From the NCBI GenBank assembly GCA_025677605.1, contig GCA_025677605.1_4110.1: DNA of 64,000 nucleotides. One strand, written 5' to 3'. The notes under the pieces are model-generated. The model had not been told where the DNA came from. It saw nothing but the letters and a program-made list of their open reading frames with translations, and did no database searches. This DNA is from a phage. This document shows positions 47,477 to 52,509 of the stretch, in pieces. The position numbers and the translations under genes are program-made. Each line of letters opens with the position of its first letter. Positions within the stretch are counted from its first letter, which is position 1.

Positions 47477-47791
47477 TTACACTTCCTTCATATATTCATC
47501 ACCAACTAAGCTTCTAACTATATCAATAATAGTTTCATTACCGTTGTATACTGACACATATACAACATAAAATGTTTTTCCATTATCATCCCTGCATATA
47601 CTTGCCCATGCGTTAATTACATCCCTGGTGAATACATCAACTAATGCATTTTTGATAAATCGCCAGTACTGTTCTGATTCGAAATAATTGTCGCTTAATT
47701 TTCCACATCTGAATTTTGCATATTCAATTGTCATTATATCACCGTATATGAAAAAAGACCCCAACATGGAGTCTTTTTTTATTTTAACCAA
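47477..47791 (-). CDS. Hypothetical protein, start uncertain
   Basis: The annotated 5' end contains a terminator-like hairpin (about 47755-47776) and a GTGATATAATGA element overlapping an internal Met codon (47734-47732); true start probably internal. Confidence 0.45.
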   Translation of the reverse strand: MVKIKKDSMLGSFFIYGDIMTIEYAKFRCGKLSDNYFESEQYWRFIKNALVDVFTRDVINAWASICRDDNGKTFYVVYVSVYNGNETIIDIVRSLVGDEYMKEV

Positions 47792-48575
47792 TAATCATAC
47801 CAAGTGGTTCACCACCATCTTTGTATCTCTTCAACTGTTCTTTAAGTTGTTCCTGGAGTTGCATACCTTCATTACGAAGTGTATCACCATCCATTGAAAA
47901 TGTTCCTTGTGGTCCTGGTAAAGAAGCAAACTTAGCACGGTTGCGACCTAACATAATCATCGCTTCCGATAAAGCCCAATCACGAAGCCACGGATAACTC
48001 ATTTGACGTTGGAATAGTAGTGGTTCTGGGATGTTATGATACACATGAACCAGTACTTCTTCTGTGCCGCGAATATCACGGTCAATAACCAGTTTCTTAG
48101 TCATAGGGTTAAACTGGAAAATAATCTCACGTCCAAACATACGTCCTACTAATTCCTGAAACTGGAAACTGAAGTCATAGGTTGTTAAATCATAACCACC
48201 AGCGTTGCGAGCAGACGTTAGTAGATATGTGTTTGTAAATGCAATTGAAAATGGATCAACTGAGTTACCACTACCAGAACTCAAATAACCATTACCATAA
48301 CGATAAATTTTCTTAACAATTTCCACTTCAGTTGGTAACATGTAAACTGATTGAGAATCATAGAATTTCATGCTTAAAAAAGCTTCTTCTTTTGATGCAG
48401 AACTCCATGCTCTGTAGTTTGATACCGCATTATCGATTGCGATTTCTAATTGTCCATCAGTAATTTCAACTTCAACAGCACCAGCACCCAACATTTGTGT
48501 AATCACATCTTTTAATTTTTCACGGTGATCGTAATTTGGGGCATCTGGATTTCCACCCATATAGTCATATGACAT
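47784..48575 (-). CDS. Hypothetical protein
   Basis: 263-aa ORF. Confidence 0.7.
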   Translation of the reverse strand: MSYDYMGGNPDAPNYDHREKLKDVITQMLGAGAVEVEITDGQLEIAIDNAVSNYRAWSSASKEEAFLSMKFYDSQSVYMLPTEVEIVKKIYRYGNGYLSSGSGNSVDPFSIAFTNTYLLTSARNAGGYDLTTYDFSFQFQELVGRMFGREIIFQFNPMTKKLVIDRDIRGTEEVLVHVYHNIPEPLLFQRQMSYPWLRDWALSEAMIMLGRNRAKFASLPGPQGTFSMDGDTLRNEGMQLQEQLKEQLKRYKDGGEPLGMIIG

Positions 48576-48626
48576 AAAAAAGCACCTCTTTAATGTTTAT
48601 ATACATTATTTAGAGGTGCTATTGAT

Positions 48627-48839
48627 TTAGCTTAGTCTATCGTACCAACAACGCAAATAAACTAAGTTAACAAAGTGTTCAGTATCTATCATATCAAGGA
48701 AACCAAATATACTAACTGAATATATATGTTTCCCATCATGATAGTATATTATATAGTCTTGATTTGGCTCAATCCAGTAATGAGTATTTCCGACTATTAA
48801 TTTATGATTATAAACACCTGTTAAAAGATGATCGCTCAT
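48627..48839 (-). CDS. Hypothetical small protein
   Basis: 70-aa ORF. Confidence 0.45.
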   Translation of the reverse strand: MSDHLLTGVYNHKLIVGNTHYWIEPNQDYIIYYHDGKHIYSVSIFGFLDMIDTEHFVNLVYLRCWYDRLS

Positions 48840-49216
48840 TAACTTATCTTTGTACAGTTAGTGACAATGTGTTCAATATCTTTTTTAGTGAAGGGGCCGA
48901 GTACTAGAACCTCTTCCCCATTACCAAACATACTTAGTGGTACTGACTGCTGATTCGCAAGATATTCAATCTGCATCATTTCATCCATGTCATCTGCTTC
49001 ATAGACAACTTGTTCCAGTTCATTGTCTTTAATCCATGAATCCCAATGAGCTTTAAACTGTTTGGCTTCATATTCTTGAACATAGTTAGGGGATGCTGGG
49101 TTGTACTGATGTAGCATAGTCATGCCAGCCATAACCAATTCTTTTGGTGATGGGGTTTTACCTTTCAGTACTACGATAGCTTGAATAGTTTTTGCTTTCA
49201 CTTCATTAGCAGCCAT
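48839..49216 (-). CDS. Hypothetical protein, weak PTH2-like peptidyl-tRNA hydrolase resemblance
   Basis: IQAIVVLKGK N-terminus and VLVLGPFTKKDIEHIV C-terminus loosely resemble PTH2; weak. Confidence 0.55.
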   Translation of the reverse strand: MAANEVKAKTIQAIVVLKGKTPSPKELVMAGMTMLHQYNPASPNYVQEYEAKQFKAHWDSWIKDNELEQVVYEADDMDEMMQIEYLANQQSVPLSMFGNGEEVLVLGPFTKKDIEHIVTNCTKIS

Positions 49217-49228
49217 TTTATACCTCTA

Positions 49229-49537
49229 TTATAGGATGATTTTGTTGTCAGGGACAATCAACGCTGGCTTATCTTCTAGAGTCTTAATTGCTTCAACATA
49301 AGCATCAACCAGTGCAGGGTTTGCATCACTGATACTGATGATGTTAGATTTGAAGAAAATAACACCTTTTTCTGAACTAATAAATTCTAGATAATCACGT
49401 AGAATGATTTCACCTTTTTCGTCAGTACCTAGCTGTGCTGGGTAGTTAACTACTACTGCTTCTGGAGCATCGGTTTGTAGAACTGCTAGTACTGGGCCAA
49501 CGTTGTTGATGTTTAGTAGTTTAACGGTAATAGTCAT
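49229..49537 (-). CDS. Hypothetical protein (start trimmed to internal ATG)
   Basis: Track ORF 49229-49687 overlaps the upstream gene by 130 nt; ATG at 49537 (MTITVKLL) has an AAGGA RBS just after the upstream stop. Confidence 0.5.
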   Translation of the reverse strand: MTITVKLLNINNVGPVLAVLQTDAPEAVVVNYPAQLGTDEKGEIILRDYLEFISSEKGVIFFKSNIISISDANPALVDAYVEAIKTLEDKPALIVPDNKIIL

Positions 49538-49556
49538 TTTTGTCAAGTCCTTTTGT

Positions 49557-50069
49557 TTATTTGAGAATATATAAATGTTTTTCAGCATTAACCAGCCTGT
49601 GGTCAATGATTTCTTTGATAACGTTCCAGTTACCACCGCCCAAATCGGCTCCAATTTTCGGAAAGTGTACATGAACATTTCGTTCAATTTTACAGAAAAA
49701 ATTCAAATGCATGAAAACGTCATCAATGGCATCATAGCTTACGTATTTTGCACCATCAGTTCCGTACCATTTTTGAGTAATGCAGTTTGCGATAATCAAA
49801 TCATCATTAATTGCTGAATATGCAATTTGTCCGGTTCTTAGAAAACCCATTCTCTTTTCATATTCTTTATAATCATCATATGCCTTTGGGTACTGCATTC
49901 TGAGTTCTTTTGCAAAACCAGAACCCATTTTACCTTGAGCATTACAACCATGAGCTATAATATGTAATGCAGTATGATCATCAGTTACAGTACTGAATAA
50001 TTCAAACAGATTACCGTGATGTTCATGTATCATGTGTTCTCCGAAAAGAAAAGGACTCGAATATATCAA
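49557..50069 (-). CDS. Putative macro-domain (ADP-ribose binding/processing) protein
   Basis: HIIAHGCNAQGKMGSGFAKEL and FPKIGADLGGGNW resemble the two glycine-rich macro-domain loops; motif-only call. Confidence 0.5.
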   Translation of the reverse strand: MIYSSPFLFGEHMIHEHHGNLFELFSTVTDDHTALHIIAHGCNAQGKMGSGFAKELRMQYPKAYDDYKEYEKRMGFLRTGQIAYSAINDDLIIANCITQKWYGTDGAKYVSYDAIDDVFMHLNFFCKIERNVHVHFPKIGADLGGGNWNVIKEIIDHRLVNAEKHLYILK

Positions 50070-50087
50070 GTCCTTTATATTATTAGG

Positions 50088-50345
50088 TTATTCTTCTTCA
50101 CCGAAACGAATTTTCTTCAATTCTTTTCGATGCTTTCTTGCTATTGTACTTTTGTGAAGTCTATTACTACGTTTTGTGTCTTTTTCAATATACCAGCTAT
50201 CTTCTGGTGGATTGAAGTCACAATAACCATCTTCCGTAATTGTTCCTAAGAATGCAGATTTTTTAGGAATATTTGTTTGAGCTTTAGTCTGAAATTGACC
50301 TTTTGCTAATTGTTCACGAAAACTGAGCATAATAGTATCTCCCAA
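50088..50345 (-). CDS. Hypothetical small basic protein
   Basis: 85-aa ORF. Confidence 0.45.
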   Translation of the reverse strand: MGDTIMLSFREQLAKGQFQTKAQTNIPKKSAFLGTITEDGYCDFNPPEDSWYIEKDTKRSNRLHKSTIARKHRKELKKIRFGEEE

Positions 50346-50380
50346 ATTGTTAAGAAGAACTTGTTGTTCTTCAATATTAT

Positions 50381-50620
50381 TTAGGGGTTTTTTACAACCT
50401 CATGTGAAGCAATAAATGCTAAAATATCATCTTTACTAAACACTTCAATAATGTGAGAAATAGCAGCATCGTATTCTTCACGTCTTGATGTGTATTCTTT
50501 CATTTCATGAATTTTCTTTTGAGCTTTTTGTTTTGATTGGTTGATATCTGGAGTTTCAAATTTAACTCCCAAACTGTCAGCCAATGCACGTGCTCGTGAT
50601 GATACCTTATCGATATTCAT
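50381..50620 (-). CDS. Hypothetical small protein
   Basis: 79-aa ORF. Confidence 0.45.
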   Translation of the reverse strand: MNIDKVSSRARALADSLGVKFETPDINQSKQKAQKKIHEMKEYTSRREEYDAAISHIIEVFSKDDILAFIASHEVVKNP

Positions 50621-50868
50621 TAGTTCCAGCGACCTTCTTTTAGCCCGTTAACAAAACCAGTACATCCACCAGGAACATACTCATCATTTACGAAAATTTG
50701 TGGAACTTGACGAACTGGCTCACCGCAAATTTCTGATAGTTTAGCACCATCAATACCTTCAGAAACCACATCGATAAAATCCATTTCAAATGAATTGTTC
50801 TCACAAATTGCTTTTGCTGTATCACAGAAATTACAACCAGTCGTGCGACCATAAATTTTCACTTTCAT
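50620..50868 (-). CDS. Glutaredoxin/NrdH-like redoxin
   Basis: 82 aa with CxxC (CNFC) near the N-terminus and thioredoxin-fold pattern. Confidence 0.75.
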   Translation of the reverse strand: MKVKIYGRTTGCNFCDTAKAICENNSFEMDFIDVVSEGIDGAKLSEICGEPVRQVPQIFVNDEYVPGGCTGFVNGLKEGRWN

Positions 50869-50872
50869 ATAA

Positions 50873-51289
50873 CTATCCTTTATTTTTTTGAAACAATTTA
50901 ACAGCTTTAATTATACTGTTACACATTCGTTCGGTCAAATACTTTTGACAATCTTGAACATCAATGTACATGAATTTATCCAATTCTGGATGGCTTTTAC
51001 CATATCGATTGGTATAAGTACTGTTACACTTCAGTTCATCCGGTTCGGGTTTGTATTTAGCTGTATAGAAAAATAAAACTAATCTTTTCCCTTTCCTGTA
51101 TGATACATCACCTAATAAGAGAAGATCCTTTTCATCAATCTCAAATCCTGTTTCTTCATAGCACTCACGAACAGCAGCTTCAGCAAATGTTTCATTGCCC
51201 TCGGTTTTACCTTTTGGTAAATCCCAATGCTTCTGTCCGTGTTGTGTGTCCAACAAGTATCTGACCATCACGATAAAATATAATGCCAC
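50873..51289 (-). CDS. Nudix hydrolase
   Basis: Nudix box GKTEGNETFAEAAVRECYEETGFEI. Confidence 0.8.
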   Translation of the reverse strand: MALYFIVMVRYLLDTQHGQKHWDLPKGKTEGNETFAEAAVRECYEETGFEIDEKDLLLLGDVSYRKGKRLVLFFYTAKYKPEPDELKCNSTYTNRYGKSHPELDKFMYIDVQDCQKYLTERMCNSIIKAVKLFQKNKG

Positions 51290-51375
51290 AACTATAACGC
51301 ATAATCTTATCTCTTAATAGCAATGATGCCCAGATACAATTATTATATCAGAAGTCGTTCTCTTTTCCCAGAGTT

Positions 51376-52509
51376 TTAAAACATTTGTTGAATTGCTTCA
51401 CAACGTAAAACTGAAACAAAATCACGGATTTCAGATGCTTCTAACTCACCGTCTTTTACCAGTTGTTGAATATCTGGAAGTACTACATCAGTGTAACGAT
51501 CATATACCTTAATGATTAAATCTTCAAGGTCTAAATCAATCTCTTTACGTAGAATAAAATATTCCAGTACTTTGTAAAGGAATTCTTCACCGCCGTTATT
51601 CTTGATATTCATATCCAGTAATAATTGTCCCATTTCATTTGGGGTCTTTTTACGGAATGCCTTGATATCATCACGGAAACGTTTGATGTAATTACTGAAT
51701 TTAACGTACTTAACGGGCATTTTAATAGCACCATTCAGTACTGAATCCTCACCAATTTCTTCTTTCTCAAGAAGCACAGACCATAAGAAATATGGCTTAT
51801 ATGCTTCAGTACAATTATCAGAGATATGATCAATGAGTTCCAATGACTTTTTGGTTAATGTAGCATTAAATGCTTTTTCATAGTAACCAAACTTACTTAG
51901 TGTTTTAAGGAACTTAGCTGGCTTTTCTTCTGACAGTGCTTTTTCAAATTCAACATAAACACGGTCTGGAACAAGGTGATTTAGCTCACCAGACGCTACC
52001 ATATCGATTGCAAGTGCTTCAGTAGTCTCGTGTATAGAGAAATCAGAATAACGCGTAGCAAAGCGAGCTAGACGTAATACACGCAATGGATCTTCTTTGA
52101 AGTGTTCGGATACATGACGTAGTACTTTATTCTTGATATCAGCTTTACCACCGTATGGGTCGATGTGAATTTGCAGTACTGGATCATACGCGATTGCATT
52201 AATTGTAAGATCACGACGATACAAATCTTGTTCCAGTGTTACACCTTTTGTATCCACTTCGAAGCCACCGTATCCAGTACCAGTTTTTCGTTCAGTACGG
52301 GCTAATGCGTGTTCGTTACCTTCTGGGCTTAGATAAACTGGAAAATCTTTACCAACCTGTTTATATCCAATACTTTCTAAGTATTTGATATCAGATTCAG
52401 TTGCACCAACAATGACATAATCTTTGTCCTTTGCACGAATGCCCATTAGACGGTCGCGGCAGTATCCACCAACAAGGTATTTTTTCATTCTTATTCTCCC
52501 ATCAACCAA
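51376..52509 (-). CDS. tRNA nucleotidyltransferase (CCA-adding enzyme family)
   Basis: Head-domain motifs GGYCRDRLMG...DKDYV, RRDLTINA, EDPLRVLRLARFA; likely true start MKKYLVGG. Confidence 0.85.
   Translation of the reverse strand: MVDGRIRMKKYLVGGYCRDRLMGIRAKDKDYVIVGATESDIKYLESIGYKQVGKDFPVYLSPEGNEHALARTERKTGTGYGGFEVDTKGVTLEQDLYRRDLTINAIAYDPVLQIHIDPYGGKADIKNKVLRHVSEHFKEDPLRVLRLARFATRYSDFSIHETTEALAIDMVASGELNHLVPDRVYVEFEKALSEEKPAKFLKTLSKFGYYEKAFNATLTKKSLELIDHISDNCTEAYKPYFLWSVLLEKEEIGEDSVLNGAIKMPVKYVKFSNYIKRFRDDIKAFRKKTPNEMGQLLLDMNIKNNGGEEFLYKVLEYFILRKEIDLDLEDLIIKVYDRYTDVVLPDIQQLVKDGELEASEIRDFVSVLRCEAIQQMF

What the first reader, a model, noticed from the sequence alone, without database searches (positions are those of the whole stretch)
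49557..50069. Candidate macro-domain protein among early genes
Two glycine-rich loops resemble macro-domain ADP-ribose-binding motifs. A phage macro domain could reverse ADP-ribosylation imposed by host toxins or process tRNA-repair by-products. The call is motif-based and weak.
Basis: inference. Interest (0 to 1): 0.5.

Follow-up and report, generated by a model that had tools for sequence, protein, structure and literature searches.

The report
Phage macrodomain ADP-ribose hydrolase gene
This is a real macro-domain (ADP-ribose-removing) gene of a jumbo E. coli phage; public records already annotate it as such, and it is related to phage enzymes recently shown to defeat the DarTG2 DNA-ADP-ribosylating defence, so it is real but ordinary.

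Summary
The minus-strand ORF encodes a 158-aa protein. Its real start is the ATG at 50033, not the TTG at 50069. The two glycine-rich loops are the two ADP-ribose-binding loops of a macro domain.

Evidence for the fold:
- Sequence matches to solved macrodomains: BT1257 8e-27, SCO6735 9e-21, Poa1p 1e-15, DarG 6e-14, TARG1 5e-11.
- An AlphaFold model with pLDDT 94 whose best structural matches are those same proteins.

The window is an Asteriusvirus jumbo coliphage, 98.5% identical to phage A4. A4 carries the identical protein, already annotated "macro domain-containing protein".

The protein belongs to the TARG1/DarG/SCO6735 class. It is of the "Gln type": invariant H28, N31 and Q87 correspond to SCO6735 H24, N27 and Q85. 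It shares PHROG 335 with T4 Tk.4 and PhiKZ gp104, both named AdfM and both reported to protect phage from DarTG2. It is the only macro gene in the A4 genome. No ADP-ribosyltransferase gene lies next to it.

Most likely function, by homology only: an orphan antitoxin-like hydrolase that removes ADP-ribose from thymine in phage DNA. Processing of soluble ADP-ribose derivatives or of ADP-ribosylated RNA is not excluded. "Early gene" is unproven. Novelty and interest are low.

The parts
49557..50033 (-). Macro-domain CDS (158 aa plus TAA stop), ATG start at 50033
   Evidence: ORF. 100% identical to A4_541 'macro domain-containing protein'. PDB matches BT1257, SCO6735, Poa1p, DarG, TARG1. AF2 pLDDT 94.2. 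Foldseek top hits are macrodomains. PHROG 335 at 1.6e-43.
50037..50042 (-). Shine-Dalgarno-like GGAGAA, 3 nt upstream of the ATG
   Evidence: Read directly from the sequence.
50040..50076 (-). Terminator-like hairpin (11-bp stem, 4 GC pairs, 5-nt loop) plus T-rich tail, between the upstream 80-aa ORF and the macro gene
   Evidence: Consensus scan and sequence. Function not shown.
49941..49952 (-). H28-G-C-N31 motif. H28 and N31 are invariant and correspond to SCO6735 H24 and N27.
   Evidence: SCO6735 mutagenesis is in PMC9411070.
49911..49943 (-). Glycine-rich loop 1, NAQGKMGSGFA (aa 31-41), the substrate/distal-ribose loop
49773..49775 (-). Gln87, invariant in 55 of 55 members. It occupies the position of SCO6735 Gln85, DarG Lys80 and TARG1 Lys84.
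   Evidence: Alignments, counts. The residue equivalence is stated in PMC9411070.
49626..49661 (-). Glycine-rich loop 2, PKIGADLGGGNW (aa 125-136), the diphosphate-binding loop

Best explanation
The gene encodes a single-domain ('orphan') macrodomain ADP-ribosyl glycohydrolase of the TARG1/DarG/SCO6735 (ALC1-like) class, in the subtype that has Gln rather than Lys at the catalytic position. The most likely role is AdfM-type counter-defence. When a host DarT2 toxin ADP-ribosylates thymine in single-stranded phage DNA and blocks replication, the phage enzyme binds the ADP-ribose through its two glycine-rich loops. It positions the distal ribose with Gln87, which is held by Asn31, and hydrolyses the base-ribose bond, restoring the DNA and releasing free ADP-ribose. 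Shown here: the fold, the class, conservation of the catalytic-core residues, homology to T4 Tk.4/AdfM, and the absence of a partner transferase gene. Inferred: catalytic activity, DNA-thymine as substrate, and protection against DarTG2.
For: Fold and class. Single-sequence phmmer against PDB gives BT1257 8.5e-14, SCO6735 1.4e-9 and Poa1p 6e-8. The family profile gives BT1257 8e-27, SCO6735 9e-21, Poa1p 1e-15, M. tuberculosis DarG 6e-14, T. aquaticus DarG 1.5e-13 and TARG1 5e-11. The AF2 model has pLDDT 94.2 and pTM 0.90. Foldseek top PDB hits are 2FG1, 6LFR, 5E3B, 5M3E and 4J5S. The only NCBIfam and PADLOC hits are DarG, at 1.4e-7 and 1.8e-10. Catalytic core. H28, N31, Q87 and G133 are invariant in 55 homologues. 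They align with SCO6735 H24, N27 and Q85; Q85A and N27S abolish or nearly abolish thymidine-ADPr hydrolysis (PMC9411070). Link to tested phage proteins. The protein shares PHROG 335 with T4 Tk.4 and PhiKZ gp104. BLASTP to T4 Tk.4 gives 31% identity and E 1e-12; hhalign gives 99.6% probability and E 5e-24. T4 Tk.4 also has HGCN, TQ and GxGNW. The best viral structural match is a tk.4 protein. A tk.4 knockout sensitises T4 to DarTG2 (preprint 10.1101/2025.11.20.689424). PhiKZ AdfM removes DarT2 marks from DNA in vitro (PMC13309987). Orphan status. It is the only macro gene in the 355-kb A4 genome. No DarT or other ADP-ribosyltransferase was found in the neighbours or in the A4 annotation. A distant homologue in a T5-like contig lies near the anti-defence gene Gad2.
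Against: Identity to T4 Tk.4 is only 31%. The T4 evidence is genetic, from a preprint, with no biochemistry for a Gln-type phage enzyme. The two SCO6735 lysines that hold the DNA are not conserved: K34 corresponds to S38 (Ser in 50 of 55 members), and K89 falls in a loop that differs. T4 Tk.4 has the same Ser, so this is not disqualifying. The protein is near-neutral, pI 6.4. Enzymes of this class are promiscuous: they act on Glu/Asp-linked protein ADPr and on uracil-ADPr in RNA. In this phage lineage the conserved neighbours relate to translation, tRNA and nucleotides, not to DNA or known anti-defence genes: CCA enzyme, NUDIX, glutaredoxin, a PTH2-like protein, plus S30AE and YqeY in relatives. 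Expression timing is unknown.
Confidence: 0.55

Rival explanations
1. The protein processes soluble ADP-ribose derivatives. It would act as a Poa1p-like ADP-ribose-1''-phosphate phosphatase or an O-acyl-ADP-ribose deacylase, or it would degrade ADP-ribose-based immune signals or toxic metabolites. The neighbouring NUDIX hydrolase would then break down the released ADP-ribose.
For: Yeast Poa1p is a clear sequence and structure match. PHROG 335 and the T4 annotation call the family 'phosphatase'. A NUDIX gene lies about 0.8 kb upstream, and this arrangement is conserved out to Xanthomonas phage XaC1. The A4 genome encodes a Sir2-like protein, a possible source of O-acyl-ADPr. [quoted passage not shown]
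Against: Matches to BT1257 and SCO6735 are much stronger than to Poa1p (8e-27 against 1e-15). The invariant Gln87 is the SCO6735 catalytic residue; in the HMMER alignment Poa1p shows 'lfts' where the family has 'itQ'. No KptA/Tpt1 or 2H phosphodiesterase is annotated in the A4 genome, and its RNA repair genes are of the Rnl + Pnkp type, which produce no Appr>p. The NUDIX neighbour scores best against RNA-pyrophosphohydrolase and MutT-type models, not ADP-ribose pyrophosphatase models. The synteny is lineage-wide and may only reflect common descent.
Confidence: 0.2
2. The protein removes ADP-ribose from RNA or from proteins of the translation apparatus. Substrates could be uracil-ADPr, ADPr on phosphorylated RNA ends, or Glu/Asp-ADPr. 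It would form part of a conserved module that keeps tRNA and ribosomes working during infection.
For: The module is conserved across Rak2/121Q-like jumbo phages: S30AE hibernation factor, CCA-adding enzyme, NUDIX, glutaredoxin, YqeY, macro, PTH2-like. SCO6735, DarG and TARG1 also hydrolyse uracil-ADPr in RNA (PMC13036486). SCO6735 also acts on Glu/Asp-modified PARP1.
Against: No bacterial defence that makes a reversible RNA-base ADP-ribosylation of this kind appears in the papers I read; CmdT adenine modification is described as irreversible. Gene adjacency within one phage lineage is weak evidence. The only genetic data for a close homologue point to DarTG2.
Confidence: 0.15
3. The protein is a non-catalytic ADP-ribose binder, that is, a sponge or reader for ADPr-containing molecules.
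For: Some macro domains only bind. Phage sponges for nucleotide signals exist (general knowledge, not tested here).
Against: All residues needed for catalysis in SCO6735 (H, N, Q and the glycine loops) are invariant in 55 homologues down to 40% identity. That pattern is expected for an enzyme.
Confidence: 0.05
4. It is not a macro domain at all, and the glycine motifs occur by chance.
For: The Pfam Macro hit for the single sequence is below the gathering cut-off (17.5 bits against 22).
Against: all identify a macrodomain with high significance.
Confidence: 0.01

Closest known systems
T4 Tk.4 = AdfM (anti-DarT factor, macrodomain), PHROG 335
   Same: Single-domain phage macrodomain of about 155 aa with the same HGCN, TQ and PxIGAG-G-GNW motifs. 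It has Gln at the catalytic position and Ser at the SCO6735 K34 position, and no adjacent toxin gene. It is in the same PHROG. hhalign gives 99.6% probability. The best viral fold match to the window protein is a tk.4 protein.
   Different: Only 31% identical. The loop after the Gln is much longer and strongly conserved in the window family (QxxYGxDGxKYVSYDA against QFQPGPNFEYSA). The genomic neighbourhood differs. The window protein is untested.
Streptomyces coelicolor SCO6735 and Bacteroides BT1257 (PDB 5E3B, 2FG1): Gln-type ALC1-like macrodomains
   Same: These are the best sequence and structure matches among solved proteins. H24, N27, Q85 and the GGx loop are conserved. SCO6735 hydrolyses thymidine-linked ADPr on DNA and neutralises DarT.
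   Different: They are cellular, not phage, proteins, at about 25% identity. The SCO6735 DNA-positioning lysines K34 and K89 are not conserved (S38 and a different loop).
DarG2 antitoxin macrodomain and PhiKZ gp104 AdfM
   Same: Same fold and class. DarG is the only PADLOC and NCBIfam hit. PhiKZ gp104 is in the same PHROG. They remove DarT2 marks from DNA.
   Different: They are Lys-type: a 'TK' motif sits at or next to the alignment column where the window protein has TQ. DarG has a C-terminal DarT-binding domain and sits beside darT, and neither feature is present here. The score against the DarG model is far below the family cut-off (31 bits against 250). PhiKZ gp104 scores 133 bits against PADLOC DarG, against 39 bits for the window protein.
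Yeast Poa1p (ADP-ribose-1''-phosphate phosphatase, PDB 6LFQ-6LFU)
   Same: Same fold, with an HxCN motif and glycine loops. E 1e-15 with the family profile. Third-best Foldseek hit.
   Different: No Gln at the catalytic position. It has a long insertion before loop 2. Poa1p S30 corresponds to K35 here. Its substrate is a soluble metabolite of tRNA splicing.
Human TARG1/OARD1
   Same: Same class. Removes thymine- and uracil-linked ADPr.
   Different: It uses a Lys84/Asp125 dyad, where the window protein has Q87 and G132. The Lys/Gln equivalence is stated in PMC9411070.

Membership tests
Macro domain superfamily | Three-layer alpha/beta/alpha macro fold | tested here: met
   AF2 pLDDT 94.2. Foldseek probability 1.00 to more than 50 solved macrodomains, TM 0.75-0.83 to 2FG1, 5E3B and 5M3E.
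Macro domain superfamily | Two glycine-rich ADP-ribose-binding loops | tested here: met
   Loops at aa 31-41 and aa 125-136. G39, G128 and G133 are invariant and align to the loops of solved macrodomains.
Macro domain superfamily | Pfam PF01661 at gathering score | tested here: not met
   17.5 bits against a cut-off of 22 for this sequence. Many homologues do pass. PF01661 is centred on MacroD-type sequences, so this reflects model bias, not absence of the fold.
Macro domain superfamily | Binds ADP-ribose | not testable with these tools
   Needs ITC, thermal shift or co-crystallisation.
TARG1/DarG/SCO6735 (ALC1-like) class, Gln subtype | Closest relatives are BT1257 and SCO6735; Gln replaces the TARG1 K84 / DarG K80 lysine | tested here: met
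   Ranking. Q87 is invariant in 55 of 55 members and aligned to SCO6735 Q85. The equivalence is stated in PMC9411070.
TARG1/DarG/SCO6735 (ALC1-like) class, Gln subtype | Asn that locks the Gln (SCO6735 N27) and the preceding His (H24) | tested here: met
   N31 and H28 are invariant.
TARG1/DarG/SCO6735 (ALC1-like) class, Gln subtype | DNA-positioning lysines (SCO6735 K34, K89) | tested here: not met
   K34 corresponds to S38 (Ser in 50 of 55 members). K89 lies in a loop segment absent here. T4 Tk.4 also has Ser at this position.
Phage AdfM (anti-DarT factor, macrodomain) | Homology to T4 Tk.4 and/or PhiKZ gp104 | tested here: met
   PHROG 335 for all three proteins. BLASTP 1e-12 and hhalign 5e-24 to Tk.4. 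Similarity to gp104 is weak: 5e-6 over 44 aa.
Phage AdfM (anti-DarT factor, macrodomain) | Orphan: single domain with no cognate DarT next to it | tested here: met
   158 aa, one domain. Neighbours have no ART or DarT hits. None is annotated in the A4 genome.
Phage AdfM (anti-DarT factor, macrodomain) | Removes DarT2-made thymine-ADPr from DNA and protects phage from DarTG2 | not testable with these tools
   Needs enzyme assays and plaque assays.
DarG2 antitoxin (NCBIfam NF048014) | Full-length match including the C-terminal DarT-binding domain; catalytic Lys; adjacent darT | tested here: not met
   31 bits against a cut-off of 250, macro part only. Gln rather than Lys. No darT gene present.
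Poa1p-type ADP-ribose-1''-phosphate phosphatase | Closest to Poa1p, and genomic association with the KptA/2H RNA-repair pathway | tested here: not met
   Poa1p ranks below BT1257 and SCO6735. No KptA or 2H is annotated in the A4 genome; this rests on annotation only. Phosphatase activity itself is not testable here.

The most novel reading that the evidence does not exclude
The macro gene has kept the same place in this jumbo-phage lineage, inside a block with a ribosome hibernation factor, a CCA-adding enzyme, NUDIX, glutaredoxin, YqeY and a PTH2-like protein. It may therefore not be a DNA-directed AdfM. It could instead be an RNA- or translation-directed de-ADP-ribosylase that removes ADP-ribose from tRNA, mRNA or rRNA (uracil-linked or end-phosphate-linked) or from translation factors. 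That would imply an as yet undescribed host defence that reversibly ADP-ribosylates the translation apparatus.
Probability: 0.1. Interest if true: 0.6.

Novelty: already known. Interest (0 to 1): 0.2.

Why it matters
For annotation, the result gives this gene and its roughly 50 close Asteriusvirus/Rak2-like orthologues a more precise label: an orphan Gln-type TARG1/SCO6735-class macrodomain, the same family as T4 Tk.4/AdfM. It also gives a concrete prediction, protection against DarTG2. Two smaller points follow. First, the two phage proteins independently named AdfM belong to different catalytic subtypes: PhiKZ gp104 is Lys-type and DarG-like, while T4 Tk.4 is Gln-type and SCO6735-like, and this gene is Gln-type. 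Second, macro domains occur in about 56% of jumbo phages, so finding one here is not surprising.

Tried and rejected
1. TTG start at 50069. Rejected in favour of the ATG at 50033, on the RBS, the homologue N-termini, the A4 annotation and the overlap with the hairpin.
2. MacroD/YmdB-type macrodomain. Rejected: the Pfam Macro hit is sub-threshold, YmdB ranks only 19th by Foldseek, and the motifs are of the HxCN/TQ type.
3. Toxin-antitoxin pair inside the phage (macro plus ART or sirtuin). Rejected: the flanking ORFs have no ART or SIR2 hits, and the only Sir2-like gene of A4 lies about 40 kb away.
4. Second macro paralogue, for example a Lys-type DarG-like copy. None was found in the whole A4 genome or the window, using tblastn with three queries and an HMM of the family against all six-frame ORFs.
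5. Virion-packaged enzyme. The phAPEC6 orthologue gp283c is not among the virion proteins in the part of the published mass-spectrometry table I retrieved, whereas the neck protein gp280c three genes away is listed. I did not read the whole table.
6. Expression timing. The T4 late-promoter motif TATAAATA is depleted in the window (2 found against 8.5 expected). The sigma-70-like scan gave fewer hits than shuffled sequence (24 against 28.8). Neither assigns a class, so 'early' stays undecided.
7. tRNA link. There are no tRNA genes in the window.
8. Papers on Sharanji and on NAD+ in jumbo phages say nothing about this gene.

Full report
WHAT IS THERE. The window is a stretch of an Asteriusvirus jumbo coliphage. 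A 4.1-kb segment around the finding is 98.5% identical to Escherichia phage A4 (ON286972) and about 83% identical to 121Q, PBECO4, phAPEC6, Sharanji and others. The likely start, however, is the ATG at 50033, giving 158 aa. GGAGAA lies 3 nt upstream. All homologues start at the equivalent Met. The identical A4 gene, A4_541, is annotated as 477 bp. The 12 upstream codons would run through a terminator-like hairpin at 50076-50050.

IS IT A MACRO DOMAIN? Yes.
- The Pfam Macro hit for the single sequence is sub-threshold (17.5 bits against 22).
- The sequence alone nevertheless matches solved macrodomains: BT1257 (2FG1/2AFC) 8.5e-14, SCO6735 (5E3B) 1.4e-9 and yeast Poa1p 6e-8.
- A profile of 55 homologues gives BT1257 8e-27, SCO6735 9e-21, Poa1p 1e-15, M. 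tuberculosis and T. aquaticus DarG 6e-14 and 1.5e-13, TARG1 5e-11, and ALC1 about 2e-3.
- An AlphaFold2 model built on that alignment has mean pLDDT 94.2 and pTM 0.90.
- Its best Foldseek matches in the PDB are those same proteins, followed by viral and MacroD-type macrodomains.
- Its best match among predicted viral structures is the tk.4 protein of the T4-like Acinetobacter phage 133.
- The identical protein in A4 is already annotated 'macro domain-containing protein', and 121Q gp544 is 'Appr-1-p processing domain protein'.
- tblastn finds homologues in 1,788 phage records. A published survey found macro domains in about 56% of jumbo phages (PMC9503650).

WHICH KIND OF MACRO DOMAIN? The family has invariant H28, N31, G39, N83, Q87, G91, Y100, P125, G128 and G133. 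In the alignment with reference proteins, Q87 falls on Gln85 of SCO6735. The SCO6735 study states that Gln85 is the structural equivalent of the catalytic Lys80 of DarG and Lys84 of TARG1. In that study Q85A abolishes, and N27S nearly abolishes, hydrolysis of thymidine-linked ADP-ribose on DNA (PMC9411070). N27 and H24 correspond to the invariant N31 and H28 here. The window protein is therefore a Gln-type member of the TARG1/DarG/SCO6735 (ALC1-like) class. Two SCO6735 lysines proposed to hold the DNA are not conserved: K34 corresponds to S38, and K89 lies in a loop that differs here. The family instead has its own long conserved loop after the Gln, QxxYGxDGxKYVSYDA.

LINK TO TESTED PHAGE PROTEINS. 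Two recent studies each named a phage macrodomain AdfM.
- T4 Tk.4 was the single hit in a transposon screen on a DarTG2 host, and its deletion sensitises T4 to DarTG2 (preprint 10.1101/2025.11.20.689424).
- PhiKZ gp104 removes DarT2 marks from DNA in vitro and protects chimalliviruses (PMC13309987).

I fetched both genes. All three proteins fall in PHROG 335, at 1.6e-43, 1.3e-65 and 8.2e-43. The window protein aligns with Tk.4 at 31% identity, E 1e-12, and hhalign of the family against Tk.4 gives 99.6% probability, E 5e-24. Tk.4 shares HGCN, TQ, the Ser at the K34 position and GxGNW. PhiKZ gp104 is different: it has a 'TK' motif at or next to the catalytic column and scores 133 bits on the PADLOC DarG model, against 36-39 bits for Tk.4 and the window protein. 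So the shared name AdfM covers a Lys-type (DarG-like) lineage and a Gln-type (SCO6735-like) lineage, and this gene belongs to the Gln-type lineage.

CONTEXT. On the minus strand the order is:
- CCA-adding enzyme (51376-52509)
- NUDIX (50873-51289)
- glutaredoxin (50620-50868)
- a 79-aa ORF
- an 80-aa ORF
- hairpin
- macro gene
- a 102-aa phrog_527 protein
- a 125-aa weak PTH2-like protein
- a 70-aa ORF
- gp13-like neck protein (47784-48575)

In A4 the dNMP kinase and tail sheath genes follow. The same order, with an S30AE hibernation factor and YqeY added, is kept in Xanthomonas phage XaC1 and in a 349-kb metagenomic phage whose macro proteins are only 45% and 42% identical. This is an old syntenic block of the lineage. 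It is suggestive of a translation/tRNA theme but does not prove a functional link.

None of the neighbours is an ADP-ribosyltransferase. The whole A4 genome has a single macro gene and no annotated DarT, Alt/Mod-type ART, KptA or NADAR. It does have RNA ligase plus Pnkp, a Sir2-like protein and a DUF4326 protein elsewhere. The window has no tRNA genes. The phAPEC6 orthologue gp283c does not appear in the portion of the virion mass-spectrometry table that my search returned, whereas the nearby neck protein gp280c does. In an unrelated T5-like contig a 46%-identical homologue lies near Gad2 (anti-Gabija), a cpYpsA/SLOG gene and an HD gene, a setting typical of counter-defence genes. I found no evidence on expression timing, so 'early gene' remains open.

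MOST LIKELY MECHANISM. The protein is most likely an orphan, antitoxin-like ADP-ribosyl glycohydrolase. DarT2 toxins ADP-ribosylate thymine in ssDNA and block phage replication. The phage enzyme would bind the ADP-ribose with its two glycine loops, position the distal ribose with Q87 (held by N31), cleave the base-ribose bond and release ADP-ribose. Shown here: fold, class, conserved catalytic core, homology to Tk.4 and orphan status. Inferred: activity, substrate and the defence countered. I put about 0.95 on 'catalytically competent TARG1/SCO6735-class macrodomain' and about 0.55 on the AdfM/anti-DarTG2 role.

RIVALS.
- Processing of soluble ADPr derivatives (Poa1p-like phosphatase, OAADPr deacylase, or degradation of immune signals), about 0.2. 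It is supported by the Poa1p match, the conserved NUDIX neighbour and the Sir2-like gene. It is weakened by the stronger SCO6735 signature and the absence of an annotated KptA/2H pathway.
- De-ADP-ribosylation of RNA or of the translation apparatus, about 0.15. It is supported by the conserved neighbourhood and by the uracil-ADPr activity of this enzyme class (PMC13036486).
- A non-catalytic binder, about 0.05.

VERDICT. The gene is a correctly spotted but ordinary phage macrodomain. It is already annotated as such in public records, and it belongs to a family whose counter-defence role has recently been described. Interest is low.

Noticed in passing
window ~52491-52509 (junction); L001 12986-14053 (A4_535): Phage A4 carries an extra 1,068-bp gene (355 aa, Pfam DUF4379 treble-clef zinc finger) between the CCA-enzyme gene and a 40-aa ORF. 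It is absent from the window and from phAPEC6. This looks like a mobile-gene insertion or deletion polymorphism.
   Followed up: partly
window 47784-52509 (minus strand); L006, L007: The block CCA enzyme, NUDIX, glutaredoxin, (YqeY), macro, phrog_527, PTH2-like, gp13 neck, dNMP kinase, sheath is syntenic out to Xanthomonas phage XaC1 and a 349-kb metagenomic phage. In those relatives lysozyme and an S30AE hibernation factor precede it. A translation/tRNA-flavoured module sits directly beside the neck and tail genes.
   Followed up: partly
window 50040-50076 (minus strand): A terminator-like hairpin (11-bp stem) with a T-rich tail lies immediately upstream of the macro gene's ribosome-binding site. 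If it works as a terminator, the macro gene needs read-through or its own promoter. Not tested.
   Followed up: no
window 50381-50620 and 50620-50868: The A4 record labels the 79-aa ORF 'glutaredoxin' and the 82-aa ORF 'hypothetical'. The strong Pfam glutaredoxin hit (4e-9) is the 82-aa ORF, and the 79-aa ORF has only a weak sub-threshold hit (0.004). The labels look swapped.
   Followed up: partly
window 48839-49216 (minus strand): This 125-aa protein (phrog_14786) has a weak, sub-threshold PTH2 peptidyl-tRNA hydrolase hit (5e-4). The same weak hit recurs in the syntenic genes of distant relatives. A4 also annotates a separate peptidyl-tRNA hydrolase elsewhere (A4_114).
   Followed up: no
window 49229-49687 (minus strand): The mechanical ORF of 152 aa (TTG start) overlaps the 3' end of the macro gene. 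The annotated and conserved product is the 102-aa phrog_527 protein starting at the ATG at 49537, of unknown function. It is always immediately downstream of the macro gene in this lineage.
   Followed up: partly
whole window: The T4 late-promoter consensus TATAAATA is depleted: 2 matches against 8.5 expected from shuffles. This phage also encodes a gp55-like late sigma factor elsewhere. Its late promoters probably differ from those of T4.
   Followed up: no
L009 3186-6500 (127-kb T5-like metagenomic contig): A 46%-identical macro homologue sits among cpYpsA (SLOG), HD_4, Gad2 (anti-Gabija) and a T5 A2-like gene. This looks like a counter-defence island.
   Followed up: no
A4 genome outside the window: L013 47099-47851; L014 9197-9529; L013 24706-27857: The nearest complete genome encodes a Sir2-like protein (Pfam SIR2 2e-19), a DUF4326 protein embedded in the anaerobic ribonucleotide reductase cluster, and RNA ligase plus Pnkp. 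These are other NAD/ADPr- or RNA-repair-related genes that might interact functionally with the macro domain.
   Followed up: partly
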